Positions 17,975 to 36,056 of a stretch of 52,202 nt of DNA are shown piece after piece. The notes under the pieces were generated by a model, which was not told where the DNA came from, did not search any database, and saw only the letters and a list, made by a program, of their open reading frames with translations. The stretch lies in the NCBI GenBank assembly GCA_028524385.1, contig GCA_028524385.1_3661.2. The stretch is one strand, 5' to 3'. The DNA comes from a phage. Every line of letters starts with the position of its first letter. Positions within the stretch are counted from its first letter, which is position 1. Made by a program: the position numbers and the translations under genes.

Positions 17975-18475
17975 GTGAAAATTAAGATCTTTGCTATTAT
18001 TTTGAGCGCACTTTTATCGCTGCCTGTTGTTGCAGCACCAAAACAAAAAGTATATCATACTTGCAAGCCCTCAGATACTAAGGAAAACATTCTGGCATGC
18101 AATATCTACAGGGAGGCTAGAGGGGATGGCACGATGGGTATGCTGGCATCAGGGTTTGCCACACTAAACAGGAAATCTCACCCCAAATACCCAGACACTA
18201 TAAGAAAGATTGTCTACCAACCTAACCAGTTTTCGTGGACAAACCACGGCAAAACTTTTAAGGTGACAGAAAAAGATTCATGGGATCACGCTAAAAGTCT
18301 TGCAAAGATGCTTCTAAAGGTCTATAATAACAACCATGTTGCATACATGGCTATGGACATAACAGGTGGAGCAACACACTACCATACAACCAAAGTACGA
18401 CCGAAATGGGCAAAAAAGATGCAGAGGACAGCTCAATTCGGGAGTCATATCTACTACAAGGAGCGCAATAAATGA
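17975..18475 (+). CDS. secreted cell-wall hydrolase, SleB/CwlJ-like
   Basis: N-terminal signal peptide MKIKIFAIILSALLSLPVVAAP; ...CNIYREARGDG...NQFSWTNHGK... matches SleB-type hydrolase pattern; GTG start with SD ggag. Confidence 0.5.
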   Translation: MKIKIFAIILSALLSLPVVAAPKQKVYHTCKPSDTKENILACNIYREARGDGTMGMLASGFATLNRKSHPKYPDTIRKIVYQPNQFSWTNHGKTFKVTEKDSWDHAKSLAKMLLKVYNNNHVAYMAMDITGGATHYHTTKVRPKWAKKMQRTAQFGSHIYYKERNK

Positions 18476-24682: not shown

Positions 24683-25447
24683 TTGAAATTTATCTACAAA
24701 GAACACTACCACAAAGGTGTTGTGTGGAGTCTATTTGACGGGTCTGGTGGTGCAGTCATTGACTGGGCAAAAGCTGGGTACCTGTGCCTGTGCTTTAATG
24801 CAGAAGGTGCTGATCACGGCAGTTATGCAGAGGTGATAACCGATCATCCCAACATTTACTATGTGGATTATTGGATTGACCCATGGTTCCCTCAGGAAAC
24901 TTTTTGCATGTACCCAGCTCCAGACTTTATTCTTGCATTTCCTCCGTGCACGCATTTAGCGGTATCAGGTGCTGCACATTTTAAGAAAAAGCTGGCTAAG
25001 GACCCTATGATCCAAATTAATGCTGTAAAGGATGCTCGGGTTGCGGAAGAGCTGGGAGAGATTTACGATTGCCCGTGGCATGTAGAGAATCCTGTAGGTG
25101 TTATGTCCACACTGTGGCGCAAACCTGATTACCGTTTTCATCCTTCTGACTATGGCGGGTATTTACCGGAGGATGATGTAAACCCTTGGTTTCCTGAATT
25201 TATAGCTCCACGCGATGCCTATCCAAAAATAACTTGCGGCTGGATAGGTAATGGATTTATAATCCCGGCCACAAAACCTGTCCCGCAAATAGTTGACGCG
25301 GTTAGCGGGTATTCCATGCAACACGCTAAGCTAGGTGGAAAAAGTGCAAGGACGAAGATGATTCGAAGCCTCACACCCCGTGGCTGGGCAAAAGCCGTAT
25401 TCTTAGCAAACGAGCCTGTAGTAAGGAGCAGAATTAATGGGAAGTAA
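24683..25447 (+). CDS. DNA C5-cytosine-methyltransferase-like protein (short, no obvious target-recognition domain)
   Basis: Motif I SLFDGSGG, motif IV FPPC with catalytic Cys, motif VI VENPVG in canonical order; likely TTG start at 24683 with SD aggaga (track start 24653 lies inside the terminator hairpin). Confidence 0.4.
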   Translation: MKFIYKEHYHKGVVWSLFDGSGGAVIDWAKAGYLCLCFNAEGADHGSYAEVITDHPNIYYVDYWIDPWFPQETFCMYPAPDFILAFPPCTHLAVSGAAHFKKKLAKDPMIQINAVKDARVAEELGEIYDCPWHVENPVGVMSTLWRKPDYRFHPSDYGGYLPEDDVNPWFPEFIAPRDAYPKITCGWIGNGFIIPATKPVPQIVDAVSGYSMQHAKLGGKSARTKMIRSLTPRGWAKAVFLANEPVVRSRINGK

Positions 25448-27515
25448 ATTTATGGCATCTGCATATAACCGTTTCGGTGAGCCAAACCCGAAAGCAACTA
25501 AGTATAAAAGTGGGGGAAGTGTGAAACGAGACTATCGTGATGAAAAAGAGGTTGAAACTGTAGAGACTGTTTTAGAAAATACTAAAATCGTCCCTGTCCC
25601 ACAACAAAATATCGGTCTGATGGCTGCACAATATTTTGGTGTGCGATCAGCATTGTCCCAAGAAGACGGTGTGACAGTTACTGCAACATATTTCCCATAT
25701 TACGACCGCTACGGGAATCTGTCCGGTTTCAAAAAGCGTGACTGGACGATCCCCAAAGAGCAACGTGGGCACTTTACGACGGTTGGGATCGTAAAGGCTA
25801 ACTCCCAAATGTTTGGGCAAAAGCTGTGTGCATCTTCTAACAACCGTAAGCAGATTAACGTTTGTGAGGGGGAAGGCGATGTTATTGCAGCATGGCAGGC
25901 TGCATATCAGATACAAGTAAAAGGGATTCTCACCAACGCTAAAGCCCCGGCAAAGGTGAAACAGTGGGCTAAAGAGGTCCAGGACGGGATCGATGCAGTT
26001 ATCAACGGGGGTGATCTGGCAGGAAAACCCTGCCTACCTTTTGTTGGAATTAACTGTGGATGTGCAAACGCAGTAGATACTTTTGCAAACAATGAGAAAT
26101 TTATCCGTAGCTACGGAACAGTGGTCCTTGCAATGGACAACGATGCAGCTAACGAGGTAGAGAAGCAAAAACACGTTATCAAAGGTGTTGAAGCCACACA
26201 TAATATCGCGGCATTTTTGATGGCTGATAACGTTTACCACGTGGAATACCCCAGCGAGGTAAACGACCCTGACGGTGTAAAAGATATCCGTGACATGCTG
26301 AAGGCTAAAAAGCTGGAAGATATTGTCAACATGTTCCGTCACCCAGTCAAATATGTGCCCGATGCTGTATCTGATTTAGAAGACTTCTCCATTGAATCTC
26401 TTCGTAAGAAGACTTCTAATGGCGTAGATATCAGCGCGGAGTTCCCTAAATTGCAGAAGATGCTGAAAGGACTCCACAAAGGCACCTTGATGATGCTGAC
26501 AGGCCCATCTGGCGGTGGTAAAACAACTGTAGCCAAGAAACTAGAGCACTGCATTGCAAAATACTTGATGGATCCGACATGCCCTAAAGCCGATGATTAT
26601 GAAGAGGATGATCGCCTGTGTCTGATTCACCTTGAAGAGGACCCTGAGGAAGCAATTAACTCTCTATACGCCAACCAGTTGGGGTTTGATGTTAAAGAGT
26701 TTGTTGAAGACCCTAGTCAGTTCCTGACTGATCAGGAGCATGCTGAGATTCACCAATCTTGGGCCAAGGCTGGAAAAATCAAAGTGTTCAAGCATTTTGG
26801 GTCTATTCCTGTAGATGAGTTGATCACTAAGCTTAAACAAATGGTGTGTCTGTATCACTGCCGTTATATTGTGCTGGATCACCTGTCCATGGTAATTTCA
26901 GGGCTTAATGTTAAGGATGAGCGCAAAGAACTTGACATGGCTATGACGCAACTAGCCGCGTTCTGTAAGCAGTTTAATGTATTTATCTTGGTGATCGCTC
27001 ACCTGAAACGCACAGAGATTGTGCCTCCAAAGGACAAGGATGGGAATCCGTTACCTTTTTGGTATCCTGTACGAAAAGAGAACCTTCGGGGTAGTGCCGG
27101 ATTGGAGCAACTTAGCTGGGTAGTTGTTGGGGTGGAGGCAGAAGAGATGGTGGATCGTTCCCGTGGACGTGTCCGACTGGTAGGTCTTAAAAACCGCCCA
27201 GCAAAAACGTTAGGCATTGCGGATACCTTAGTTATGGATCCCCACACAGGTAAGTTCCATGATGCCAGCAACTGGTACTGGGACAAAGAAATGCAGATGT
27301 TCACAGACGGCGAAGGTGGGGAGGTTGTTTGGAGACCTCAAGCTATGTTTGAGGATCAAGAGCACGCAGTTGTAGAAACACCTGTAGGTAGGGTTGTGGC
27401 TGATAAGGTTGTAACTCCTACTGTTAACCCTGTTGACACACAAGAAGACCTTCCGTATGATGATCCGTCCTCTGACCCTGTTCCAGGTTTTGAAGACGAT
27501 GAAACACCTTTTTAA
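25437..27515 (+). CDS. primase-helicase (TOPRIM primase + DnaB-like helicase, T7 gp4-like architecture)
   Basis: TOPRIM EGEGD and MDND motifs in N-terminal half; Walker A GPSGGGKTT and RecA-like helicase core in C-terminal half; acidic C-terminal tail ending DDETPF. Confidence 0.65.
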   Translation: MGSKFMASAYNRFGEPNPKATKYKSGGSVKRDYRDEKEVETVETVLENTKIVPVPQQNIGLMAAQYFGVRSALSQEDGVTVTATYFPYYDRYGNLSGFKKRDWTIPKEQRGHFTTVGIVKANSQMFGQKLCASSNNRKQINVCEGEGDVIAAWQAAYQIQVKGILTNAKAPAKVKQWAKEVQDGIDAVINGGDLAGKPCLPFVGINCGCANAVDTFANNEKFIRSYGTVVLAMDNDAANEVEKQKHVIKGVEATHNIAAFLMADNVYHVEYPSEVNDPDGVKDIRDMLKAKKLEDIVNMFRHPVKYVPDAVSDLEDFSIESLRKKTSNGVDISAEFPKLQKMLKGLHKGTLMMLTGPSGGGKTTVAKKLEHCIAKYLMDPTCPKADDYEEDDRLCLIHLEEDPEEAINSLYANQLGFDVKEFVEDPSQFLTDQEHAEIHQSWAKAGKIKVFKHFGSIPVDELITKLKQMVCLYHCRYIVLDHLSMVISGLNVKDERKELDMAMTQLAAFCKQFNVFILVIAHLKRTEIVPPKDKDGNPLPFWYPVRKENLRGSAGLEQLSWVVVGVEAEEMVDRSRGRVRLVGLKNRPAKTLGIADTLVMDPHTGKFHDASNWYWDKEMQMFTDGEGGEVVWRPQAMFEDQEHAVVETPVGRVVADKVVTPTVNPVDTQEDLPYDDPSSDPVPGFEDDETPF

Positions 27516-27573
27516 TGTTTAACCAAGAGTGGGAGGGGTAGTACAACCGCCTCCCCTTTAAGGAGAACTGTAT

Positions 27574-30500
27574 ATGAGCATGTGGTCTTTCGATTTTGAG
27601 TCATCCGGTTTGCTGGAAGACCCAGATCTTTATTATCACTGCGGCCTGTTTAAAGAGCTGAATAAGAACCGTTTTATGCTGTTCCTTCCTCTAAATGACC
27701 GCACACACTACTCTGAAGAGGATATAGAGAAGGCTAAGAACTTTATTCTGGCAAAGAAAACTCTTTATAAAGATTTTGAAGTTCGCATAGCAGATTTTTC
27801 AGAGTTGGAAGGTTGGCTTACAGGAAATTCTGACTGGTCACCCACAGCTTTGAACTGCCACAACTGCTACAGCTACGACTTTATGCTGATGGAGAGATTG
27901 TCCGGTATTCATTTTGATATGTTCCGTGACCCTAAGTGTATGGGGACTATCAACGACCACCAGGTTAATCTGTTTGATACGTTGGCGATGAGCCGAATCT
28001 TGTGGCCTGATCGCCCTTTACCAAAAGGTTGTCCGGACTCTGTATTCAACCCGGTTACTAAGAAAATGCAGCCTGTTGGTCCTCACGGCCTTATGGCATG
28101 GGGCTACGCCCTTGGTAACCAGAAAGTTCAAATTGATGACTGGCGCGATCTTCCGTTGTGGAAGTATGTGGATCGTGTATTCGAGGACGTTATCATCCAG
28201 GAGCTGCTCTGGAAAGAGCTGGTAGCGGAATCAAAAGGTGTATTCTACGGCAAATCTGACATGCAGAACTTTATGTACGATCCAGCCAAAGAGAAGCCGA
28301 AAGGGTTCAAGAAGATCACCTGGAAGAACGCACTACGTCGAGGCATGCTGCAGCACTTCCTGATGGAGCTGCAGGCCCGTCAGGGTGTATACTTCGACAT
28401 AGATGGAGCTATTGCTTTACGTGACCGTTGCGATGCGTGGATGAAAGAAATCGCTGATCGTGTTGAACCACAACTACCTTTAAAAGAGCTGTCAATGTCT
28501 CAGCGGCCCAAGTTCCCTGAAAAGCCGTTTAACCAAGACGGGACAATCTCTAATAATGGTTGGAAATGGTTAAAAGATAAGCTTGGCTATCCTGTAGACA
28601 TGAGCGCTTTAGATTTCAAAGCCCCGCCTAAGCGAGCATTTACCTCTACAGGAGATGTCAGCAAGATGGGGATAAAATGGTGTGAAGAGATGGGCTGCAA
28701 AGACCCCGATAAGATGGCTGATTTCTTGAGAGGCTATATTAAGGGCACTTCCACACCTCACCCTTTGCCTAAAGAGCTGATGGATCAGGCAATAAGTGAT
28801 CTACAGCAGAAGCGAATGCCGGACTGCAAGATACCTATGAAAATCAGCAATCAGGACGACATTAAGCGGTATCTGATCAGTGCTGGCTGGCTACCGACAA
28901 TGTGGAGAACTAAGGATGTAACTAAAGATAGCAAGAAGAAAGCTCTACCTGATGCGGATGTTGATGCACGAGTATATGCATATATGGACGAGCTTTTAGA
29001 GTCAGAGTATTGTGACCTGATTATCAACTTCTGGAACAAAACTGATGCCAAGTTCCAGACAACTGTGCACAAGTTCCGAAGCTTTCCTAACTCTGAAAGG
29101 ATTAAAAAGGAAGTATTCGGGAAAATACGTAGAAAAGCCAGAGCACTTATTACTTCTCCGCAACTGAAAGATACGTTTGGACACCTGTGTCCGAATCTTG
29201 AAAAATTGAACGGAGAGATGGCTAAAGATATCGTCTTGTGGTTATCATTGCGAAACCGCAGATCAGTCCTTGATCCAATCAAGGAGGATAAGGTTGATAC
29301 TGGTCTTCTTAATCACCCACGTTTGAAGATTGACCATAAGCTTCCTGCTAAAAGCTCTGGATTAACAAACACTTCCAGACAGAAACACAGTATTTGTGCA
29401 AACATGCCTAAACCATCCCCTAAAGTGGTTATGGGTAAAGAGATGCGCAGTCTGTGGGGTGTTCCTCCTGGATACTTTCAGATCGGTATTGACGGGTCCA
29501 ACTTAGAGCAGCTTATCGGGGCTTGGGGTGCCTTTGAGTTCGACAACGGCCTGTATTACGATGTTGTAAGTAACGGCGATGCACATTGTTATTCAGGAGA
29601 TACACAAATTCTCACGGAGAAAGGGTGGGTGAGGTTTGAAGATCTTGATCCGGGAACACAAGTGTTCCAGTACGATCACAACACCTCGTCAATGAACCTT
29701 GTTACTCCATTAAATTACGTTAAGCGTAGTTATTATGGAGATATGTATCATTTCCACAACAGTAGTGTGGATTTTATGGTTACAGATCAACACAGGATGC
29801 TGACTGTGGATCACAGAAGCAATAAATTGTTTGAAGATTTGGCAAAAGACCTGAAAGCAGGTAAAGGGTCTAATTCAGGAAGAAGGTTTATCCATGCGGC
29901 AGAGTTTTATGGGAATACAGCCTTATCTCCTGCCCAGGTTAATTTGCTTATTGCTATTCACGATGATGGGCACTTGCATACAAATAAGGACGGCAGCATC
30001 GTGTGCAGGATTCAGGTCGGAAAGGGAAGAAAAGTTGCAACGCTTTTAGATACTTTTTCTGCTCTAAGCCTTAGTTATGTAGAGCAGAGCGGGAAAACCA
30101 CAAAAGGAGGCTTACTGGCGAGAAGGTTCCAATTCCACGTTCCGTCTTGGGTATTTGAGTTTTTGGACAGCAATAAGGATTTCACCTACAACCTGATGAA
30201 CCTTGATAAAGAATCTAAAAACCTGTTTATAGCTTCTTTATCTAACTGGGACGGGTGGGTATCTTCAGAAGGTGGAAAGGTTGCTTACTACTCCCAGGCC
30301 GAGTGTAGGAAGAAATCTGTAGAGGTGGTGTCTGCGCTGGCTACTCAGTGTGGTTTACGGAATAATACGGTGGCGATTCACAAAAAAGGTCGTGCCGTGC
30401 AGCACAGAATCACAATTGGTAGCAAACAGAGAGCAGGGTTGCTGACACTATCTAAAGAGTCTGTCGAGGTGAGCGGTTCTTTGGTTTATTGCGTTACCGT

Positions 30501-30966
30501 CCCTTCTGGAGCAATCATTGTGAGAAGGAATGGTAAAGTGGCAGTGTGCGGTAACTGTAATAACGCCAAAGCTTACTCTTCTGTAGCAGGCAAGGAGATT
30601 TCCCGTAACGATGGTAAGCCTATCACGTATGGGGTTATGTACGGGGCACAAAAAGATAAAGTTGCAGATATGCTGGACATCTCTCCAGAGTTGGGACAAA
30701 GGGTAATCGATGCACTCTGGGATGCCAACCCTGGTCTCAAGGGGCGCAAAGAGGATCTGGAGAAATTCTGGGAAGCAACTGGTAAGAAGTTTATCTACTC
30801 TTTTGATGGTCATGCTATCTGGACCAGATCTAAACACTCTTTACTTAATGCATACCAACAGAATGGTGGTGCATCGCTGTGTGACTTAGTTGGGATACTT
30901 ATGCACCACCAAATGGTGAAGCGTGGGTGGTACGATGAAGGTGTTCGTCGTATTATTTATTACCAT
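27574..30966 (+). CDS. family A DNA polymerase (T7 gp5-like), exon 1, containing an intein
   Basis: Exo I FDFE, HCG and HGLMAWGYALG as in T7 gp5 exonuclease domain; motif A IDGSNLEQL...NGDAH; motif B-like GKPITYGVMYG after intein; track ORF continues 2 codons into the intron to stop at 30972. Confidence 0.75.
29587..30555 (+). mobile_element. intein (323 aa) with LAGLIDADG-type homing endonuclease domain
   Basis: Inserted after extein ...SNGDAH; starts CYSGDTQILTEKGWVRFEDL; two LAGLIDADG-like motifs (LLIAIHDDGH, LFIASLSNWDGW); ends VYCVTV...VAVCGN followed by +1 Cys; flanks align to T7 gp5 NGDIH|TKNQ...RDNAKTFIYGFLYG. Confidence 0.65.
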
Positions 30967-31242
30967 AAATAACATTGTGGCTTCATAGAGTAATCTATGT
31001 CGAATAACCTCTTTAACTGCGGGAAGCCTAAACCTTATGGCAAGGTAATCCGCAACGAAGCGCTCAAAAGAGCGAACGCTCAGAGGCCATTCCGAAAGGA
31101 AGTAGACCAGCAAGTGCGGTCGAAATGGGAGGATTCCTGTGGTTGCTTATCATAGGAATATGAGATGGTCCGATCCTACGTGAAAACGTATGGCTATGCA
31201 CGTAATGGTGCGGGGTAGCTTAACGACCTACCTGAACTATTG
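30967..31242 (+). ncRNA. group I self-splicing intron (ORF-less) in DNA polymerase gene
   Basis: 276 nt between exon U30966 and terminal intron G31242; P/Q/R/S core elements aactgcgggaag, aatccgcaacg, cagaggcca, gagatggtcc; IGS gugg can pair with exon end ccau. Confidence 0.65.
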
Positions 31243-31596
31243 GATGAGTACCAACTTCAGGTCCCTGACACGCCTAAGTATAAGACTGTGTACACCTTCG
31301 ACACAATTGAAGAATTGGAAGCATTTAAGGCAGAGCAGGAGGCCAAACTTCATGTGTTTGACGGTCATAAGTACAAAAAGGCACGCAAGGATGAAAACGG
31401 AAACGAAGTGGTTGACAGAGACGGAAACACGGTGTACGATCCTATCCTGAACGATGACGGAAAGCTTGAACTTATCTGGAGCCCTGTGGGTGAAATGGTG
31501 GTGCATTGCTTCTGGCAAGCTTCTAAAATGATGGGCGTTCCATTCCAGATCACAGGTGAATACTTGTGTGGTCGGAACTGGGGTGATTGTCACTAA
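31243..31596 (+). CDS. family A DNA polymerase, exon 2 (motif C to C-terminus)
   Basis: Begins DEYQLQV, completing YYH|DEYQLQV (Pol A motif C HDE); ends ...GRNWGDCH like T7 gp5 ...GPNWAICH; no SD or promoter of its own. Confidence 0.65.
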   Translation, partial: DEYQLQVPDTPKYKTVYTFDTIEELEAFKAEQEAKLHVFDGHKYKKARKDENGNEVVDRDGNTVYDPILNDDGKLELIWSPVGEMVVHCFWQASKMMGVPFQITGEYLCGRNWGDCH

Positions 31597-31645
31597 TGTA
31601 AACTATCAGCATAGGGAGGTGCTGTTGAGCAAAGAGGGGATTTTT

Positions 31646-31930
31646 ATGGTAGTAGAACCAACAAAAACATTTACATCTATGACTATCCCTGTTATTATGC
31701 AGGTGGAGTGTGTTCAGGTATCTCAAGTGTGGCCTGGCACCAAAATCCCAACAGGGCCTGATTTCTTTCAGGTTGGGAAAGTGTACAATGTCTGGAAGGC
31801 ACCAGATTGTTACCCTTTCATTAAAGATGACCGTGGAATGTTGTGGTATCTTGGAAATGATTTGACACTGCACCTTGGGAATGCTATTATTGCAGTATTC
31901 AGACTTAACAAGAAGGAGACCGATCAATGA
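31646..31930 (+). CDS. small protein, KDD-G-WY paralog family
   Basis: ATG 31646 with SD agagggga; contains ...FIKDDRGMLWYLGNDLTLHLGNAIIAVF... shared with the next two genes. Confidence 0.4.
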   Translation: MVVEPTKTFTSMTIPVIMQVECVQVSQVWPGTKIPTGPDFFQVGKVYNVWKAPDCYPFIKDDRGMLWYLGNDLTLHLGNAIIAVFRLNKKETDQ

Positions 31931-32154
31931 CAACTTTGGTTAAAGCTACTTTTGTAGAAGAAAAGATGACAGACCTGTCCTTCTTTAAAGAAGGAAAGAC
32001 CTACGAGGTTTATTACGATAAAGCTCGTGCAAACAAAATGATTAAAGACGAGGAAGGGGTTGCCTGGTATATCTCTCACCTGGCAAACGGTGAGTATCAT
32101 ATCTACGGAACCACTTTGCTTGCCAAGTTTGTAGTTGTTGAAGAGGACCTATGA
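31927..32154 (+). CDS. small protein, KDD-G-WY paralog family
   Basis: 75 aa; ...MIKDEEGVAWYISHLANGEYHIYG... Confidence 0.4.
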   Translation: MTTLVKATFVEEKMTDLSFFKEGKTYEVYYDKARANKMIKDEEGVAWYISHLANGEYHIYGTTLLAKFVVVEEDL

Positions 32155-32345
32155 AAGTAAAGTATCTTGCTGAAGGTATGAATAGGTATTTTACCCTTGG
32201 TGAAGAATATTGGCCCTTTACAAACAACGGCGATGTCTACGTGAAAGATAATTTCGGCACGCCGTGGTTTCTGCACTCTAATGGGCTGGGATACTCTATT
32301 TACTGCGGTGCAGTGAACAACACAACTCTTGCAGAGTTCGTTTAG
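32151..32345 (+). CDS. small protein, KDD-G-WY paralog family
   Basis: 64 aa; ...YVKDNFGTPWFLHSNGLGYSIYCG... Confidence 0.4.
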   Translation: MKVKYLAEGMNRYFTLGEEYWPFTNNGDVYVKDNFGTPWFLHSNGLGYSIYCGAVNNTTLAEFV

Positions 32346-32355
32346 AGGAGGTAGG

Positions 32356-32727
32356 ATGCTAGTAAAAGGTACCCACACAGTCAAACAACGTATTGAAGTT
32401 GAGATTGATGATTGTGAGCTGAAGCATATTTTACGGTCATGCTCCAACGTTTTGCTCCTTAGTATTCTTCAGGAGCGAGCGGAGAACGAGTTCTTAAATG
32501 CATTGGCAGGCCGTCCAGGTGACTTTTGTGTGCGTAAGCGTGGTGACAACAAGTCATGGTTGTGGGAAATCGATGCCGACTGGGATTACCACAAAAATGA
32601 GGGCATAGATGAGCCTATTCGTGAACTGACGGACAAAGAGATTCAGATGTACAATGAAGTTTGTCATTGGGCAACACGCCAACAAATTTACCTAGACCCT
32701 GTGTGGCTGATTGAAAATAGCCATTGA
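32356..32727 (+). CDS. hypothetical protein
   Basis: ATG 32356 with SD ggagg (track ORF starts earlier at 32329). Confidence 0.4.
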   Translation: MLVKGTHTVKQRIEVEIDDCELKHILRSCSNVLLLSILQERAENEFLNALAGRPGDFCVRKRGDNKSWLWEIDADWDYHKNEGIDEPIRELTDKEIQMYNEVCHWATRQQIYLDPVWLIENSH

Positions 32728-32752
32728 CAAGAAGTAAGATTAGATATAAGAT
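32724..32752 (+). promoter_or_regulatory. sigma70-type promoter
   Basis: TTGACA-17 nt-TAAGAT, upstream of gene 32804. Confidence 0.5.
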
Positions 32753-32803
32753 GCTTCACACAAACAAAGCGTTGATTTTTAAATAACTAAGGAGACTGCC
32801 AAG

Positions 32804-33058
32804 ATGAAAATTACTTTGAAGCCGGAATGCGTTGCAAATGACCGAGCTTTTAAAGATTGCACAGTCGGTGCAATCTATGAAGCAGAGTTTTGTGAGAACC
32901 CTCTGGTAAAAGCCCTTCTGGAAGAAGGGGCCCCTTTATCACAAGAAGAGATTGATGAGCTGGAAAACTCAGCACAGTGCCTTACCTTTAAAGATGATGA
33001 AGGAGACTCTGTCTGGTGCACTGTTAATGAAGTAGTTTTTGTAAAACCTGAACATTAA
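32804..33058 (+). CDS. small protein, paralog of 33122..33394
   Basis: KPECVANDRAFKDCT...LTFKDDEGDSVWCTV aligns with KPDYLEKDSAFRDCT...ATIKDDQGDYVCCTT of next gene. Confidence 0.45.
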   Translation: MKITLKPECVANDRAFKDCTVGAIYEAEFCENPLVKALLEEGAPLSQEEIDELENSAQCLTFKDDEGDSVWCTVNEVVFVKPEH

Positions 33059-33061
33059 TAC

Positions 33062-33090
33062 TTGACAACAGTGATAGGGCCTAATATAAT
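33062..33090 (+). promoter_or_regulatory. sigma70-type promoter with palindrome around the -10 element
   Basis: TTGACA-17 nt-TATAAT; 9-bp arms gatagggcc / ggccctatc (33073-33081, 33091-33099) embrace the -10 hexamer. Confidence 0.55.
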
Positions 33091-33121
33091 GGCCCTATCA
33101 AAACGAAAGGGGACCACAGCA

Positions 33122-33394
33122 ATGACCAAACAATATCAACGAATTAAAGCCAAGGTTAAGCCAGACTATCTGGAGAAAGACTCTGCTTTTCGGGACTGCA
33201 CAGCCGACAAAGTTTACACAGGGGCCGTCCTGTTGAACGATGAACTTGAAGTAGATATTCTGGGTAAAGAGGCCACTATTAAGGACGACCAAGGCGATTA
33301 TGTTTGCTGCACCACACGTGAGCTAGAAATCTTAGAATACTTCGGTGAAATCTTCACCTCTCTTGATGATTACTTAGATGATGAGGAAGCGTGA
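33122..33394 (+). CDS. small protein, paralog of 32804..33058
   Basis: ATG 33122 with SD aagggg downstream of promoter 33062 (track ORF starts at the TTG of the -35 box). Confidence 0.45.
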   Translation: MTKQYQRIKAKVKPDYLEKDSAFRDCTADKVYTGAVLLNDELEVDILGKEATIKDDQGDYVCCTTRELEILEYFGEIFTSLDDYLDDEEA

Positions 33395-33783
33395 TGAAAA
33401 ATATTTGGGATATTGATATCTTTGAAGCCTCTAAGCTTGATGGTGCTGATGGAGTGATTATGGTATCTGATGGCAAGGCAACACTAACTTCCGGAGATAT
33501 CATCTATGCCTTGGACGAGCTGGCGCTTCTGAAATCTACCGGTAACACTCTAGAGGAGCGTCTTCAAGGCTTCGCCTTCAAAGAAGGTACAAATACAGCC
33601 ATGATGTGCACCACACGGACAGTTCAGATGGGTAACGGTGTCTATATGATTATTGCTGTGTGTCCTAAATTCAGCAACGTCAACAAAGATGATGCTGACG
33701 CGGTAAACGATGTGGTTGTTCTCTTCGTGGGTGACGCTATGGCAGATCTGATGAATGCGGGAGAAGCAGCAAATGAAGACTGA
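33391..33783 (+). CDS. hypothetical protein
   Basis: 130-aa ORF, ATGA overlap with upstream stop. Confidence 0.4.
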   Translation: MMKNIWDIDIFEASKLDGADGVIMVSDGKATLTSGDIIYALDELALLKSTGNTLEERLQGFAFKEGTNTAMMCTTRTVQMGNGVYMIIAVCPKFSNVNKDDADAVNDVVVLFVGDAMADLMNAGEAANED

Positions 33784-34075
33784 AAACATCACCCCAGCAG
33801 GGTTCTTAAAAGTATACCGTGAACTGCTGTATACTACAGAGGACAGTGTTCTAGAGTATCCAGAATATCTCTTGCTGTATAAGTATCTGCAGGAGGCTGG
33901 TGAAAATCTGCCAGTTAGTGCAGAAGGCGGTCCGAACTGGGTATACAGCGCATGGAGAAAGGTTGACATTCTCCCAGACCCAGGCAAAGATATGGTAGTT
34001 TGGCAGCTTATCAACAACATCGGGATTCCAATCTTTGATGAAGCTGTTAAAATCTATTTTGAACTTGACGATTAA
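33773..34075 (+). CDS. hypothetical protein
   Basis: Second in-frame ATG (33773) has SD gggagaag; overlaps upstream stop. Confidence 0.4.
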   Translation: MKTENITPAGFLKVYRELLYTTEDSVLEYPEYLLLYKYLQEAGENLPVSAEGGPNWVYSAWRKVDILPDPGKDMVVWQLINNIGIPIFDEAVKIYFELDD

Positions 34076-34092
34076 TATCAGGAGACCTTAAG

Positions 34093-34338
34093 ATGACTGA
34101 AGTAGTTGCTCGCGCAGGACAGAAAGTACGTTGTGTTGAAGTAGGTTTTGGTGGCAAAGGGTGTCAAAACTTGACTCAAGGTAAGGAATACGCTGTTATC
34201 TCTGGTGGTGGCGACGAAAGTATTGTGTTCGAGGGCCACATCCTGGATGCTGAAAACTTTGAAATCTTTGACGACGATGGGGATCCGATCACCTGCCTGC
34301 TGGACGGGAATTGGGGAACTTTCGAAGTGATTGGCTAA
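34093..34338 (+). CDS. small Gly-rich hypothetical protein
   Basis: 81-aa ORF with SD aggag. Confidence 0.45.
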   Translation: MTEVVARAGQKVRCVEVGFGGKGCQNLTQGKEYAVISGGGDESIVFEGHILDAENFEIFDDDGDPITCLLDGNWGTFEVIG

Positions 34339-34421
34339 CAAATACCTATTGTAATTTACAGAAGGGGATGCTAAAATAGTGTCTCCTTCTATGTTGTTCA
34401 AATAAAATCGGAGATTCCATA

Positions 34422-34787
34422 ATGGAACAAATGAACGATCAAGCGTCGGTTGCGATGAACGAGCAAGAACAACCTCAAGAATTTTTCTTAGGGTTAAGTA
34501 AAGATCAAGTGTCTCTTTTGCTAGTGCTTTCTTCTTTCATGGGAAGACTTCAGGAGCTCACACAACAACCGGAGGCTGAACAATTATTTCAGGCCCTGCG
34601 CGAAGAAGAAAAATATCGTCGTTTGGACTATGCCTTAGGTTGGGTAGCTCAACAACGAGATATGTTGATGGCCCTCTCTGGGACCACAAGTTTTGCAATG
34701 GGCCTGTTGGCTCAAGTTCAGGACAAATTAATTCAAGCAGGGTTTGCACACACGGCAAACACTAACGAAGAACAAGGAGACAAATAA
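34422..34787 (+). CDS. hypothetical protein
   Basis: 121-aa ORF, Q/E-rich. Confidence 0.4.
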   Translation: MEQMNDQASVAMNEQEQPQEFFLGLSKDQVSLLLVLSSFMGRLQELTQQPEAEQLFQALREEEKYRRLDYALGWVAQQRDMLMALSGTTSFAMGLLAQVQDKLIQAGFAHTANTNEEQGDK

Positions 34788-36013
34788 TGAGCGTTATTCA
34801 ACAATTCGCTAACCCGATGAATCCGCGTGAAACTGTTTTACTGGCTCACGGTATGATCAAGCGTGTTAGCATCAAACCTATTAAAGGGGCTGATCCTGCA
34901 ACAGGTATTAAAACCACCGTGTGGCAAGGTAAGAAAATTGAATCCAGCCACACCATCTCTTTACTGATTTCTGAACTGGATTCCTCTGATAACCTGCTTC
35001 AAGGTGGCGAAGAAGTCTGGATCAGCATGGGTGATAAGCTGCTTAAACCGGGTCATCAAGACTCTGTCTCTGTTAAGATTGATGACAAGTGGGAAACCGT
35101 AACACCAGGATGGATCGTAAATATCCCTTTGAAGGCAAACGAGCATAACGGTAAGACCTATTACAAAGGCTCACTGGCTAAGATGGTCAAGCTGGGTGCA
35201 GGAGAGGCTCCAGCAGCGACTCAGCAGCAAAAACAGCAACAAGGTGCACAATCACAAGGTCAGAAGCAGAAACCTCAGCAGAATGCCAATCAGGACGTTT
35301 TACGCATCTATGGCGATGTGACTCAGATTGTTGGCAACGTGGTTACTGTTAATGACCACAAGATCGGCGAAGGTGCTATGGTTGTCACGGATGAGCAGCT
35401 TAAAGACCTGGTGGTAGGTGGTCGTGTTGCAGCCATTGTTGACAAAGCCACCGGAAACATTATCAGTGGTTTCAAAGCCTATCCACCTAAGGCAGAGAAC
35501 GGCACCCAAGGTTCTGGTGGCAAGCGTAAATCCTCTTACGACCCTATCGGTGTGGAGACGGGGCATAGCATCAATGCGTTGCAGATCATCCTGGATCGCG
35601 GGTTTAAGGTAGACGACCCACTAGGCGTGGCTAAAACACTGCACGTAGTCACCATTGAGCTTAAGAAAGAGTATGCTCAAGCCACCAACCGAACTGAAGA
35701 TGAAGTAGGTGCCAGTGTCGGTAATGCGGTGTTGAACGCTTGTCGCCGTATTAACAAGAAAACGAAAGTTGATGATTTTGCAGCGGCAATTACTGCAGAA
35801 GCAAAAGATGTCTTGACTAATCTGGCTGAGCCGTTGTACGATTGGATCAAGAACGGTTCTGGGTCCACTGACCATCAAGAACCCCAAGCTGCCAAACAGG
35901 AAGCAGCTCCACAGCAAAACACTGTAGACGCTCCTCCTGTAAATGATGAGGAAGATGACCCAATGGATCAGAATCCAGCACAGTACTCCTTTGATGATGA
36001 CATCCCTTTTTAA
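34787..36013 (+). CDS. single-stranded-DNA-binding-like protein with SSB-type acidic C-terminal tip
   Basis: C-terminus ...SFDDDIPF matches the bacterial SSB C-terminal tip (DDDIPF); internal Q-rich low-complexity linker; placed in replication region. OB fold not verified. Confidence 0.45.
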   Translation: MSVIQQFANPMNPRETVLLAHGMIKRVSIKPIKGADPATGIKTTVWQGKKIESSHTISLLISELDSSDNLLQGGEEVWISMGDKLLKPGHQDSVSVKIDDKWETVTPGWIVNIPLKANEHNGKTYYKGSLAKMVKLGAGEAPAATQQQKQQQGAQSQGQKQKPQQNANQDVLRIYGDVTQIVGNVVTVNDHKIGEGAMVVTDEQLKDLVVGGRVAAIVDKATGNIISGFKAYPPKAENGTQGSGGKRKSSYDPIGVETGHSINALQIILDRGFKVDDPLGVAKTLHVVTIELKKEYAQATNRTEDEVGASVGNAVLNACRRINKKTKVDDFAAAITAEAKDVLTNLAEPLYDWIKNGSGSTDHQEPQAAKQEAAPQQNTVDAPPVNDEEDDPMDQNPAQYSFDDDIPF

Positions 36014-36028
36014 CAATTAGTTAACATA

Positions 36029-36056
36029 GCCCTGCCCGAAAGGGTGGGGCATTTTT
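36029..36056 (+). terminator. intrinsic terminator
   Basis: gccctgccc-gaaa-gggtggggc followed by attttt; hairpin identical to that at 24638. Confidence 0.65.

What the first reader, a model, noticed from the sequence alone, without database searches (positions are those of the whole stretch)
27470..36013. Two replication proteins end in SSB-like acidic tips (DDETPF and DDDIPF)
The primase-helicase ends ...GFEDDETPF and the SSB-like protein ends ...YSFDDDIPF. The latter is identical in its last six residues to the bacterial SSB C-terminal tip (DDDIPF), the hub through which SSB recruits many host replication and repair proteins. The phage may mimic this tip to recruit host factors or to organise its own replisome, as T7 does with the acidic, Phe-terminated tails of gp2.5 and gp4.
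Basis: partly seen in the sequence, partly recalled or inferred. Interest (0 to 1): 0.5.

Follow-up and report, generated by a model that had tools for sequence, protein, structure and literature searches.

The report
Shared acidic tails on phage replisome proteins
An rV5-like E. coli phage puts almost the same short acidic tail ending in Pro-Phe, the docking tag of bacterial SSB, on both its primase-helicase and its own unusual single-strand-DNA-binding protein; the feature is real and strongly conserved, but it is a variation on what phage T7 and bacterial SSB already do, and the SSB half was reported in a 2026 preprint.

Summary
The gp4-type primase-helicase (25437..27515) ends ...GFEDDETPF. 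The 408-aa protein (34787..36013) ends ...YSFDDDIPF, and its last 7 residues equal the E. coli SSB tip. Both tips cap disordered acidic tails and are conserved far beyond chance: 112 of 120 primase-helicase homologs and 113 of the 150 best family representatives end in PF.

It is the ortholog of Bas52_0087, which a 2026 preprint describes as an SSB-like trigger of the DRT10 defence with an FDDDIPF tip. That half is therefore already known. The primase-helicase tip and the pairing of the two are not in that preprint.

The replisome is T7-like: a gp4 homolog, a family-A polymerase, and acidic Phe-ended tails on both helicase and SSB. I conclude these are docking peptides. The partner is untested; the candidates are the phage polymerase and host SSB partners such as ExoI.

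Side finding: in relatives, both tips, and also canonical phage and plasmid SSBs, can carry a conserved 15-residue cap after the PF.

The parts
25437..27515 (+). gp4-type primase-helicase, 692 aa (TOPRIM primase part plus DnaB-like helicase)
   Evidence: phrog_239, E 6e-159. Pfam AAA_25 and DnaB_C. BLASTP to T7 gp4, E 2e-21. Invariant E144/E146/D234/D236 and Walker motif in alignment A2.
27297..27512 (+). Poorly conserved acidic C-terminal tail of the primase-helicase (residues 621-692; pI 4.05, 18 D+E against 3 K+R)
   Evidence: for composition. In alignment A2 the consensus is undefined (x) across this stretch except at the final D-x-D-x-P-F.
27495..27512 (+). Primase-helicase tip DDETPF, followed by stop at 27513-27515
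   Evidence: PF end in 112 of 120 homologs.
27574..30972 (+). Family-A DNA polymerase, exon 1. The reading frame runs into the intron and stops at 30970-72. This is the candidate acceptor of the tails, by analogy with T7 gp5.
   Evidence: phrog_17 and phrog_8888. BLASTP to T7 gp5, E 5e-19 after intein removal; T7 front-basic-patch segment VKWKRRW aligns with ATGKKF. The motif FW..TGK[KRQ] is conserved in related polymerases.
29587..30555 (+). Intein (323 aa, protein residues 672-994) inside the polymerase
   Evidence: Boundaries ...GDAH|CYSGDTQIL... and ...VAVCGN|CNNAK. The mature length of 809 aa equals the intein-less JLBYU08 ortholog. Weak Hint_2 hit and intein-containing PHROGs.
30957..31192 (+). 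Group I intron splitting the polymerase gene
   Evidence: Rfam RF00028, 64.7 bits (gathering score 50), E 3e-14, full-length model match.
31240..31596 (+). C-terminal exon ORF of the DNA polymerase (118 aa)
   Evidence: phrog_8888 positions 185-295, E 1.6e-58. Annotated 'putative DNA polymerase' in JLBYU08.
34422..34787 (+). 121-aa helical protein (phrog_7310). Its stop overlaps the start of the SSB-like gene, and it is a syntenic partner gene.
   Evidence: Found directly upstream of the long-form SSB-like gene in 13 related loci, down to 23% identity.
34787..36013 (+). SSB-like protein, 408 aa (phrog_4477; ortholog of Bas52_0087)
   Evidence: phrog_4477, E 5e-173. 97.3% nucleotide identity to bas52_0087 of phage RudolfGeigy, with the same D252 and Y351. 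No canonical SSB or gp2.5 homolog in the window or in 112 kb of the near-identical phage JLBYU08.
34787..35203 (+). N-terminal OB-like beta-barrel (residues 1-139, pI 9.1)
35204..35290 (+). Gln-rich disordered linker (residues 140-168)
   Evidence: pLDDT below 50. Sequence EAPAATQQQKQQQGAQSQGQKQKPQQNAN.
35291..35494 (+). Small second beta domain (residues 169-236), absent from the short-form relatives
   Evidence: strands, pLDDT 82-88. Alignment A1 shows the deletion in P0053-P0057. The preprint calls it a second OB fold.
35537..35860 (+). Four-helix bundle (residues 251-358). It is the most conserved domain and carries the DRT10-escape positions D252 and Y351.
   Evidence: pLDDT about 90. Invariant G255, G259, H260, N263, G312, L316. 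Escape mutants and 'putative oligomerization interface' from the preprint.
35861..36010 (+). Disordered acidic tail (residues 359-408; pI 4.05, 13 D+E against 1 K+R)
   Evidence: pLDDT 29-32. Composition.
35990..36010 (+). Tip FDDDIPF, identical to the last 7 residues of E. coli SSB; stop at 36011-36013
   Evidence: The family profile's only PDB sequence hit is E. coli SSB, through the tail alone (E 0.013).
36029..36050 (+). Terminator-like hairpin plus T-run closing the two-gene unit (121-aa gene and SSB-like gene)

Best explanation
The window carries the replication module of an rV5-like (Vequintavirus) myophage built on the T7 plan: a gp4-type primase-helicase, a family-A DNA polymerase, and a phage-specific SSB. 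The SSB is a non-canonical three-domain protein: a basic OB-like barrel, a small beta domain and a four-helix bundle that probably mediates oligomerisation. Both the helicase and the SSB carry a long, disordered, acidic C-terminal tail ending in an acidic-x-Pro-Phe-COOH tip. These tips are docking peptides. The terminal Phe side chain and its free carboxylate, flanked by Asp/Glu, would insert into a hydrophobic pocket with a basic rim on partner proteins. By analogy with T7, where the gp4 and gp2.5 tails both bind basic patches on gp5, the shared partner is most probably the phage polymerase, so that helicase, SSB and polymerase are held together and handed over at the fork. Because the SSB tip is the exact host tip (FDDDIPF), it can in addition engage E. 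coli SSB-interacting proteins such as ExoI/SbcB. The helicase tip always has a polar residue at -3 and is probably tuned to the phage partner only. Shown: the sequences, their conservation, the disorder and acidity of the tails, the predicted fold, and homology to the T7 parts. Inferred: every binding partner.
For: Tips present and unique in the window. Conservation against a variable tail background. Predicted OB-like barrel, basic (pI 9.1), with mostly ssDNA-binder fold matches. No other SSB detectable in the window or in 112 kb of the near-identical phage JLBYU08. gp4 homology, E 2e-21; polymerase-gp5 homology, E 5e-19; T7 tails end in acidic residues plus Phe. T7 tails bind basic patches K587/K589/R590/R591 of gp5, and a DTDF peptide is seen bound in PDB 6P7E (PMC12339929; PMC8472574). 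The aligned segment of the window polymerase keeps two Lys, and the motif is conserved in relatives. A phage SSB tip (NDYPPF) recruits a phage partner, Sak4 (PMC5928155). The ortholog Bas52_0087 is functionally important in vivo, being the DRT10 trigger and linked to host ExoI dosage. In Klebsiella phage VIK251 both proteins carry the same kind of 15-aa cap after the PF, which argues that the two tips are treated as the same module. In relatives the primase-helicase tail is even closer to SSB-Ct (…DFDNDTPF against …DFDDDIPF).
Confidence: 0.55

Rival explanations
1. Pure host mimicry. The tips exist to plug phage proteins into the E. coli SSB interactome (ExoI/SbcB, RecQ, PriA, chi, RNase HI, DnaG and others), either recruiting these enzymes to phage DNA or titrating them away. 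No phage-internal tail-polymerase contact exists.
For: There is a 7/7 match to the host tip. Relatives match up to 12/12 residues (EPPMDFDDDIPF). Tip variants across the family stay within the general bacterial SSB-tip consensus D-D-[DE]-[IL]-P-F. The preprint links Bas52_0087 to ExoI dosage and DRT10. The SSB-Ct pocket uses the Phe ring and the free carboxylate (PMC5872125).
Against: The helicase tip systematically departs from the host tip at -3 (T/S/C/E). The phage encodes its own polymerase, primase-helicase, ligase, RNase H and exonucleases, so the need for host replication factors is unclear. The closest homologous system (T7) uses such tails internally. In HK620 the tip recruits a phage protein.
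Confidence: 0.25
2. Autoregulatory tails only. The acidic tails fold back on the proteins' own DNA-binding surfaces (the OB groove of the SSB, the helicase DNA channel or primase site) and compete with ssDNA, as described for E. coli SSB, T7 gp2.5 and T4 gp32. No heterologous partner is involved.
For: The N-terminal barrel is basic and the tail strongly acidic. Tail-OB competition is established for other SSBs; it is cited within PMC5928155 and PMC12339929.
Against: Charge alone would not require an invariant Pro-Phe-COOH. AF2 leaves the tail undocked in both models. In T7 and E. coli the same tails also bind partners.
Confidence: 0.1
3. The 408-aa protein is not an SSB but another fork or recombination factor, such as a mediator or scaffold, that merely carries an SSB-type tip. 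The beta-barrel would be a generic OB/S1-like module with a different ligand.
For: There is no Pfam, NCBIfam or PDB sequence match for any folded domain. Foldseek has no hit at E <= 1e-3, and its best weak hits include eIF5A, EF-P and IF1. Two extra domains of unknown role are present, together with a conserved 121-aa partner gene.
Confidence: 0.08
4. Coincidence. The two similar endings have no function.
For: The motifs are short. PF is only two residues, and acidic tails are common.
Against: PF is invariant or nearly so across hundreds of diverged homologs of both proteins, while the neighbouring residues vary. Only these two of 390 window ORFs have it.
Confidence: 0.02

Closest known systems
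Phage T7 replisome tails (gp4 primase-helicase ...NDTDF and gp2.5 SSB ...EDGDF binding basic patches of gp5 DNA polymerase)
   Same: The primase-helicase is homologous (E 2e-21) and the polymerase is family A (E 5e-19). Both helicase and SSB carry disordered acidic tails ending in a C-terminal Phe.
   Different: The tip here is the bacterial type (Pro-Phe, D-D-x-x-P-F), not D-x-D-F. The SSB is not a gp2.5 homolog and has three domains. No thioredoxin-binding domain was examined, and binding to the polymerase is untested.
E. coli SSB C-terminal tip (SSB-Ct, ...MDFDDDIPF), the hub for more than a dozen genome-maintenance proteins
   Same: The last 7 residues are identical, and up to 12 in relatives. 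The tip follows a disordered low-complexity linker after an OB-type domain.
   Different: No PF00436 signature was found. The folded part is unrelated in sequence and has extra domains. Oligomeric state is unknown. A second copy of a tip-like motif sits on the helicase.
Bas52_0087 of phage RudolfGeigy (bioRxiv 10.64898/2026.04.29.721553)
   Same: It is the direct ortholog: 97.3% nucleotide identity, the same length, and the same D252, Y351 and FDDDIPF. It is described there as SSB-like with two OB folds and a C-tip, as the trigger of DRT10, and as possibly interfering with ExoI.
   Different: The preprint does not mention the primase-helicase tail, the T7-type pairing, the family-wide conservation, the four-helix bundle as a separate domain, the 121-aa partner gene, or the 15-aa cap.
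Phage HK620 SSB tip NDYPPF recruiting the phage annealase Sak4 (PMC5928155)
   Same: A phage SSB with an SSB-Ct-like Pro-Phe tip uses its last six residues to bring a phage-encoded partner onto SSB-coated ssDNA.
   Different: HK620 SSB is a distant canonical SSB homolog. Its partner is a recombinase, not a replisome component, and no helicase tail is involved.

Membership tests
Canonical bacterial/phage SSB (Pfam PF00436 type) | Sequence signature of the SSB OB domain (PF00436) | tested here: not met
   No Pfam family at E <= 0.01 for the whole protein and none relevant at E <= 10 for the separate domains. No NCBIfam hit. The profile against PDB sequences hits E. coli SSB only through the tail.
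Canonical bacterial/phage SSB (Pfam PF00436 type) | OB fold in the DNA-binding domain | tested here: inconclusive
Canonical bacterial/phage SSB (Pfam PF00436 type) | Disordered linker followed by the acidic tip D-D-D-I-P-F at the very C-terminus | tested here: met
   Residues 359-408 have pLDDT about 30, pI 4.05, and end FDDDIPF-stop.
Canonical bacterial/phage SSB (Pfam PF00436 type) | Sequence-independent ssDNA binding; homotetramer | not testable with these tools
   This needs purified protein. The preprint only predicts an oligomerisation interface.
T7-type replisome with tail-mediated coupling | gp4-family bifunctional primase-helicase | tested here: met
   BLASTP to T7 gp4: 25% identity over 522 aa, E 2e-21. 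phrog_239. TOPRIM and RecA-type motifs invariant.
T7-type replisome with tail-mediated coupling | Family-A replicative polymerase related to gp5 | tested here: met
   E 5e-19 to gp5 after intein removal. Weak DNA_pol_A Pfam hit and DNA polymerase PHROGs.
T7-type replisome with tail-mediated coupling | Acidic C-terminal tails ending in an aromatic residue (Phe) on both helicase and SSB | tested here: met
   Conserved in homologs.
T7-type replisome with tail-mediated coupling | gp2.5-family SSB (DUF2815/gp2.5 fold) | tested here: not met
   No BLAST similarity to gp2.5. DUF2815 structures appear only as very weak Foldseek hits (4klk probability 0.25; BFVD DUF2815 E 0.013).
T7-type replisome with tail-mediated coupling | Physical binding of the tails to basic patches of the polymerase | not testable with these tools
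   There is only a weak alignment hint: T7 KWKRRW against window TGKKF, conserved as TGK[KRQ] in relatives.
phrog_4477 / Bas52_0087 SSB-like family | Full-length profile match and orthology to Bas52_0087 | tested here: met
   phrog_4477, E 5e-173 over residues 1-408. bas52_0087 lies under the 97.3% nucleotide match. D252 and Y351 are present.
phrog_4477 / Bas52_0087 SSB-like family | C-terminal acidic [ILV]-P-F tip | tested here: met
   93 of the 150 best representatives have the canonical tip and 113 of 150 end in PF. The window protein ends DDDIPF.

The most novel reading that the evidence does not exclude
PF tips may be a portable, switchable docking module shared among mobile-element replication proteins, and the helicase tail may be a true SSB-Ct mimic. 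Under this reading the phage primase-helicase plugs into the same acceptor pockets as SSB, whether phage polymerase or host SSB partners. A conserved 15-residue cap (AP[IV][GT]L[QP][YF]..[KR]..[ILM][HY][ACV][LIF]-COOH) can be appended to any such tip, on the primase-helicase, on the phrog_4477 SSB, and on canonical phage and conjugative-plasmid SSBs. The cap would bury the Phe carboxylate and so retune or silence the tip, for example to avoid ExoI recruitment or tip-sensing defences. The cap is absent from this window, but it is present on both orthologous proteins in relatives such as Klebsiella phage VIK251.
Probability: 0.25. Interest if true: 0.65.

Novelty: new member of a known kind. Interest (0 to 1): 0.4.

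Why it matters
The finding extends T7's 'acidic tail plus terminal Phe' wiring of helicase, SSB and polymerase to a large, unrelated group of myophages (Vequintavirinae and relatives, used in phage therapy and biocontrol). It also shows that this wiring can be built with the bacterial SSB-type Pro-Phe tip.

The SSB-like protein is already known as the trigger of a reverse-transcriptase defence (DRT10). Knowing that a second replisome protein carries a related tip gives concrete experiments: tail deletions, tail swaps and peptide binding. These would separate 'host-factor mimicry' from 'internal replisome glue'.

The cap seen in relatives, if functional, would be an unrecognised way for mobile elements to modulate the SSB interaction hub.

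Tried and rejected
Eleven lines of work led nowhere or were rejected.

1. Sequence families for the 408-aa protein: Pfam (whole protein and per domain, E up to 10), NCBIfam, and a family profile against PDB sequences all gave nothing except the tail match to E. coli SSB.
2. Foldseek against PDB gave no hit at E <= 1e-3. BFVD gave only uncharacterised relatives and weak SSB/DUF2815 hits. The afdb50 library was unavailable.
3. I looked for another SSB in the phage by tblastn of canonical SSBs, a Drexlerviridae SSB and T7 gp2.5 against the window and 112 kb of JLBYU08. Only the tail of the 408-aa gene matched.
4. Intramolecular docking of the tail or cap: AF2 of the window protein and of a capped homolog (P0048) left residues after about 350 disordered.
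5. The idea that the 15-aa cap is read-through into a homing-endonuclease cassette was rejected. The cap occurs without any HEG nearby (VIK251, epsilon34, mEp235, Vibrio phage 1.106.O and the IncN plasmid shown directly; L018, L020 and L024 by an ORF scan only), and HEGs occur without the cap (L010, L016, L021). Codon-position differences of 199:163:360 indicate selection on the peptide.
6. The idea that the cap is a conjugative type IV secretion signal is rejected as a general explanation, because the cap also occurs in strictly lytic phages.
7. A literature search for the cap string (DIPFAP) gave 0 papers. Searches on rV5 SSB and primase found only genome-description papers.
8. A shared origin of the tail DNA with host ssb could not be assessed. 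The coding stretch is too short and codon-constrained, and no test was run.
10. A CC-licensed SSB review (PMC9917605) gave only a reference to the gp2.5 C-terminal Phe paper, with no usable text on the T7 tails. The T7 evidence was taken from PMC8472574 and PMC12339929 instead.
11. The F-plasmid protein-transfer paper (PMC8406263), the plasmid-SSB literature search, the SSB-Ct mimic search and the defence-determinants preprint (10.1101/2022.08.27.505566) held nothing on the tips or the cap. The last of these only confirms that phage SSBs and primase-helicases are common defence escape loci.

Full report
**What the window is.** The region matches Vequintavirus (rV5-like) E. coli myophages at 97-98% nucleotide identity. 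Examples are BP9, LL12, rV5_ev146 and the BASEL phages CarlMeissner and RudolfGeigy. The finding spans the phage's replication module. In order, this module holds:
- a DNA methyltransferase;
- the primase-helicase (25437..27515);
- the DNA polymerase (27574..30972 plus 31240..31596);
- a run of small ORFs;
- a 121-aa gene (34422..34787);
- the 408-aa gene (34787..36013).

**Observation.** Both endings are exactly as reported. The primase-helicase ends ...GFEDDETPF, with DDETPF at 27495..27512. The 408-aa protein ends ...YSFDDDIPF.
- Of 390 stop-to-stop ORFs of at least 50 aa in the window, only these two end in acidic-x-Pro-Phe.
- Both tips close long acidic segments (pI 4.05; 18 and 13 D+E against 3 and 1 K+R).
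- The tail of the 408-aa protein is predicted disordered (pLDDT about 30).

**Conservation.**
- Among 120 listed homologs of the primase-helicase (down to about 43% identity, including Vibrio phages), 112 end in PF. Typical endings are D[TS]PF, DEPF and DCPF. Two more have PF followed by a 15-residue extension.
- In a 26-sequence alignment of the 408-aa family, reaching 29% identity, P407 and F408 are invariant and D403 is at least 90% conserved, while the roughly 40 residues before the tip vary freely.
- A profile search of 1.84 billion cluster representatives found only 242 family clusters. Of the best 150, 113 end in PF (93 with the canonical acidic-[ILVMT]PF), 14 end in related aromatic tips (LPW, LDF), 10 have the tip followed by one residue or by a cap, and most of the rest are fragments.
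- Several relatives reproduce the host tail over 12 residues (EPPMDFDDDIPF).
- One systematic difference separates the two proteins. Position -3 is polar (T/S/C/E) in the primase-helicases and I/V/L in the SSB-like proteins. The two tips are related but not interchangeable in evolution.

**What the 408-aa protein is.**
- It matches phrog_4477 ('unknown function', E 5e-173). It has no Pfam, NCBIfam or PDB sequence relative apart from the tail.
- AlphaFold2 on the family alignment gives mean pLDDT 73.6, with folded parts at 80-94. The predicted parts are a beta-barrel (residues 1-139, pI 9.1), a Gln-rich disordered linker (140-168), a small beta domain (169-236), a four-helix bundle (251-358), and a disordered acidic tail (359-408).
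- The scores are moderate, and Foldseek finds no hit at E <= 1e-3. I therefore rate the OB fold as supported but not proven.
- No canonical SSB or gp2.5 homolog is detectable in the window or in 112 kb of the near-identical phage JLBYU08. This protein is thus the only SSB candidate.
- The 121-aa upstream gene overlaps its start codon and stays directly upstream of the long-form gene in 13 related loci, down to 23% identity. A terminator-like hairpin follows at 36029..36050. The two genes form a conserved unit.

**Prior description.** A bioRxiv preprint of 30 April 2026 (10.64898/2026.04.29.721553) studies Bas52_0087 of phage RudolfGeigy. That gene lies under my 97.3% nucleotide match and has the same D252 and Y351. 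The authors report:
- the motif FDDDIPF resembling the E. coli SSB C-tip;
- escape mutations D252V and Y351C that evade the DRT10 reverse-transcriptase defence;
- a link to host ExoI (SbcB) dosage, with the suggestion that the protein may compete with ExoI.

In my model both escape positions lie in the four-helix bundle. The preprint never mentions the primase or helicase. The SSB half of the finding is therefore already known. The helicase tip and the pairing of the two are not in that preprint.

**How it most likely works.**
- The primase-helicase is a T7 gp4 homolog (E 2e-21).
- With its 323-aa intein removed, the polymerase aligns to T7 gp5 (E 5e-19).
- T7's own gp4 and gp2.5 end ...NDTDF and ...EDGDF.
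- In T7 the six acidic helicase tails and the gp2.5 tail bind basic patches on the polymerase. These include the front patch K587/K589/R590/R591, where a DTDF peptide is seen in PDB 6P7E. Removing the tails lowers processivity or blocks SSB displacement (PMC8472574; PMC12339929).
- The window polymerase aligns TGKKF to T7's KWKRRW, and TGK[KRQ] is conserved in related polymerases. This is a weak hint only.
- A phage SSB with a Pro-Phe tip (HK620, NDYPPF) needs its last six residues to recruit the phage annealase Sak4 (PMC5928155).
- For host partners, the SSB-Ct pocket uses the Phe ring and the free carboxylate (PMC5872125).

I therefore commit to this mechanism. Both tips are docking peptides of a T7-like replisome, and the phage polymerase is the most probable shared acceptor. 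The exact host-type SSB tip can additionally engage E. coli SSB partners such as ExoI. Sequence, conservation, disorder, predicted fold and homology are shown. All partners are inferred.

**Rivals.**
- Host mimicry alone is favoured by the 7- to 12-residue identity and by the ExoI link. It is weakened by the helicase's deviant -3 residue, by the phage's self-sufficient replication gene set, and by the T7 and HK620 precedents.
- Autoregulation alone does not explain the invariant Pro-Phe, and AF2 shows no self-docking.
- 'Not an SSB' is possible given the weak fold statistics, but it is countered and the independent prediction in the preprint.
- Chance is excluded by the conservation.

**A side result from related loci.**
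- In some relatives of both proteins the PF is followed by a conserved 15-residue cap, AP[IV][GT]L[QP][YF][GAP][KR]xx[ILM][HY][ACV][LIF]-stop.
- The same cap follows DDDIPF in canonical OB-fold SSBs of lambdoid phages (epsilon34, mEp235), in Vibrio phages, in a Drexlerviridae SSB, and in conjugative-plasmid SSBs such as IncN pNDM-ECS01.
- A 23-aa query (the tip DFDDDIPF plus the 15-aa cap) is matched over at least 80% of its length in 214 phage records and 95 plasmid records.
- Klebsiella phage VIK251 has the cap on both its primase-helicase and its SSB-like protein, with no homing endonuclease beside either gene.
- Synonymous codon variation at invariant residues, and a 199:163:360 distribution of differences over codon positions, show selection on the peptide.
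- The cap is not tied to the zinc-finger homing endonucleases that often sit just downstream of the SSB-like gene.
- AF2 leaves the cap disordered, and no paper contains the string DIPFAP.
- Its function is unknown. It would bury the Phe carboxylate that host partners use.
- It supports the view that the helicase and SSB tips are the same kind of module.

**Verdict.** The feature is real, conserved and almost certainly functional. It is a new member of a known kind, combining T7-type tail coupling with an SSB-Ct tip. Half of it is already in a preprint. Interest is moderate at 0.4. The cap and the helicase-as-SSB-mimic reading are the parts that could turn out to be new.

Noticed in passing
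window 27574..31596 (intein about 29587..30555; intron 30957..31192): The DNA polymerase gene is interrupted twice. A 323-aa intein (C...GN|C, with a LAGLIDADG-like LIAIHDDG segment) sits inside exon 1. A group I intron (Rfam RF00028, 64.7 bits, E 3e-14) separates exon 1 from the 118-aa C-terminal exon ORF at 31240..31596. The JLBYU08 ortholog lacks the intein (809 aa) but has the same split.
   Followed up: partly
L002 5225-5272; L003 6019-6064; L033 (VIK251) 2392-2439 and 17998-18045; L004/L005 1525-1572; L006 1522-1569; L007 1525-1572; L031 2425-2472; L032 2025-2072: A conserved 15-residue cap (AP[IV][GT]L[QP][YF]..[KR]..[ILM][HY][ACV][LIF]-COOH) follows the PF tip directly. It occurs in relatives of both window proteins and in canonical phage and conjugative-plasmid SSBs. 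A 23-aa query (the tip DFDDDIPF plus the 15-aa cap) is matched over at least 80% of its length in 214 phage records and 95 plasmid records. Codon-position statistics indicate peptide-level selection. No literature hit was found, and the function is unknown. The cap is absent from the window.
   Followed up: partly
L002 5244-5867; L010 11233-11811; L013 11232-11843; L016 11185-11616; L021 11225-11638; L006 1559-1969: The 3' flank of the SSB-like or SSB gene is a hot spot for small zinc-finger (CxxC...FY..H) homing-endonuclease-like genes. HEG-carrying alleles often have altered tip codons (FCDDIPF, FDDSIPF, DDQIPF, YDDVPF), whereas the HEG-less alleles among the rV5-like loci examined (the window, L001 and L009) keep DDDIPF. 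This suggests that the conserved tip-coding DNA may be the homing site. The sample is small and the idea is untested.
   Followed up: partly
window 34422..34787: A 121-aa helical protein (phrog_7310, no Pfam) has a stop codon overlapping the SSB-like start codon (ATGA). It is syntenic with the long-form SSB-like gene in 13 related loci, down to 23% identity, and is absent next to the short-form relatives. It is a likely partner protein. JLBYU08 annotates it, without evidence, as 'putative SSB'.
   Followed up: partly
proteins P0063-P0065, P0104-P0152 (homologs of window 25437..27515): Many primase-helicase homologs are 975-1025 aa instead of about 670-690 aa, which is consistent with intein insertions in the helicase gene of related phages. 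The window copy has no such insertion.
   Followed up: no
proteins P0040-P0043 compared with P0033/P0034 (alignment A1): Domains appear to be shuffled within the SSB-like family. P0040 combines an N-terminal barrel of one lineage (MGLIIETINPMD...) with the linker, middle, helical and tail parts of another. This suggests recombination at the disordered linkers.
   Followed up: no
L023-L026 (phi92-like/Phapecoctavirus loci), L028: In phages whose SSB-like protein is the short form, the distantly related DnaB-type helicase ends in ...GSY, ...GAY or ...SNY, and in ...VEEY in L028. The end is still a C-terminal aromatic residue, but not Pro-Phe.
   Followed up: no
L004 1581-2129; L005 1581-2129; L007 1615-2166: In lambdoid and Vibrio phages the capped canonical SSB gene is followed immediately by an Rv2179c-like 3'-5' exonuclease gene (Pfam PF16473, E 1e-60 to 1e-73). 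This could be a candidate partner of the capped tail.
   Followed up: no
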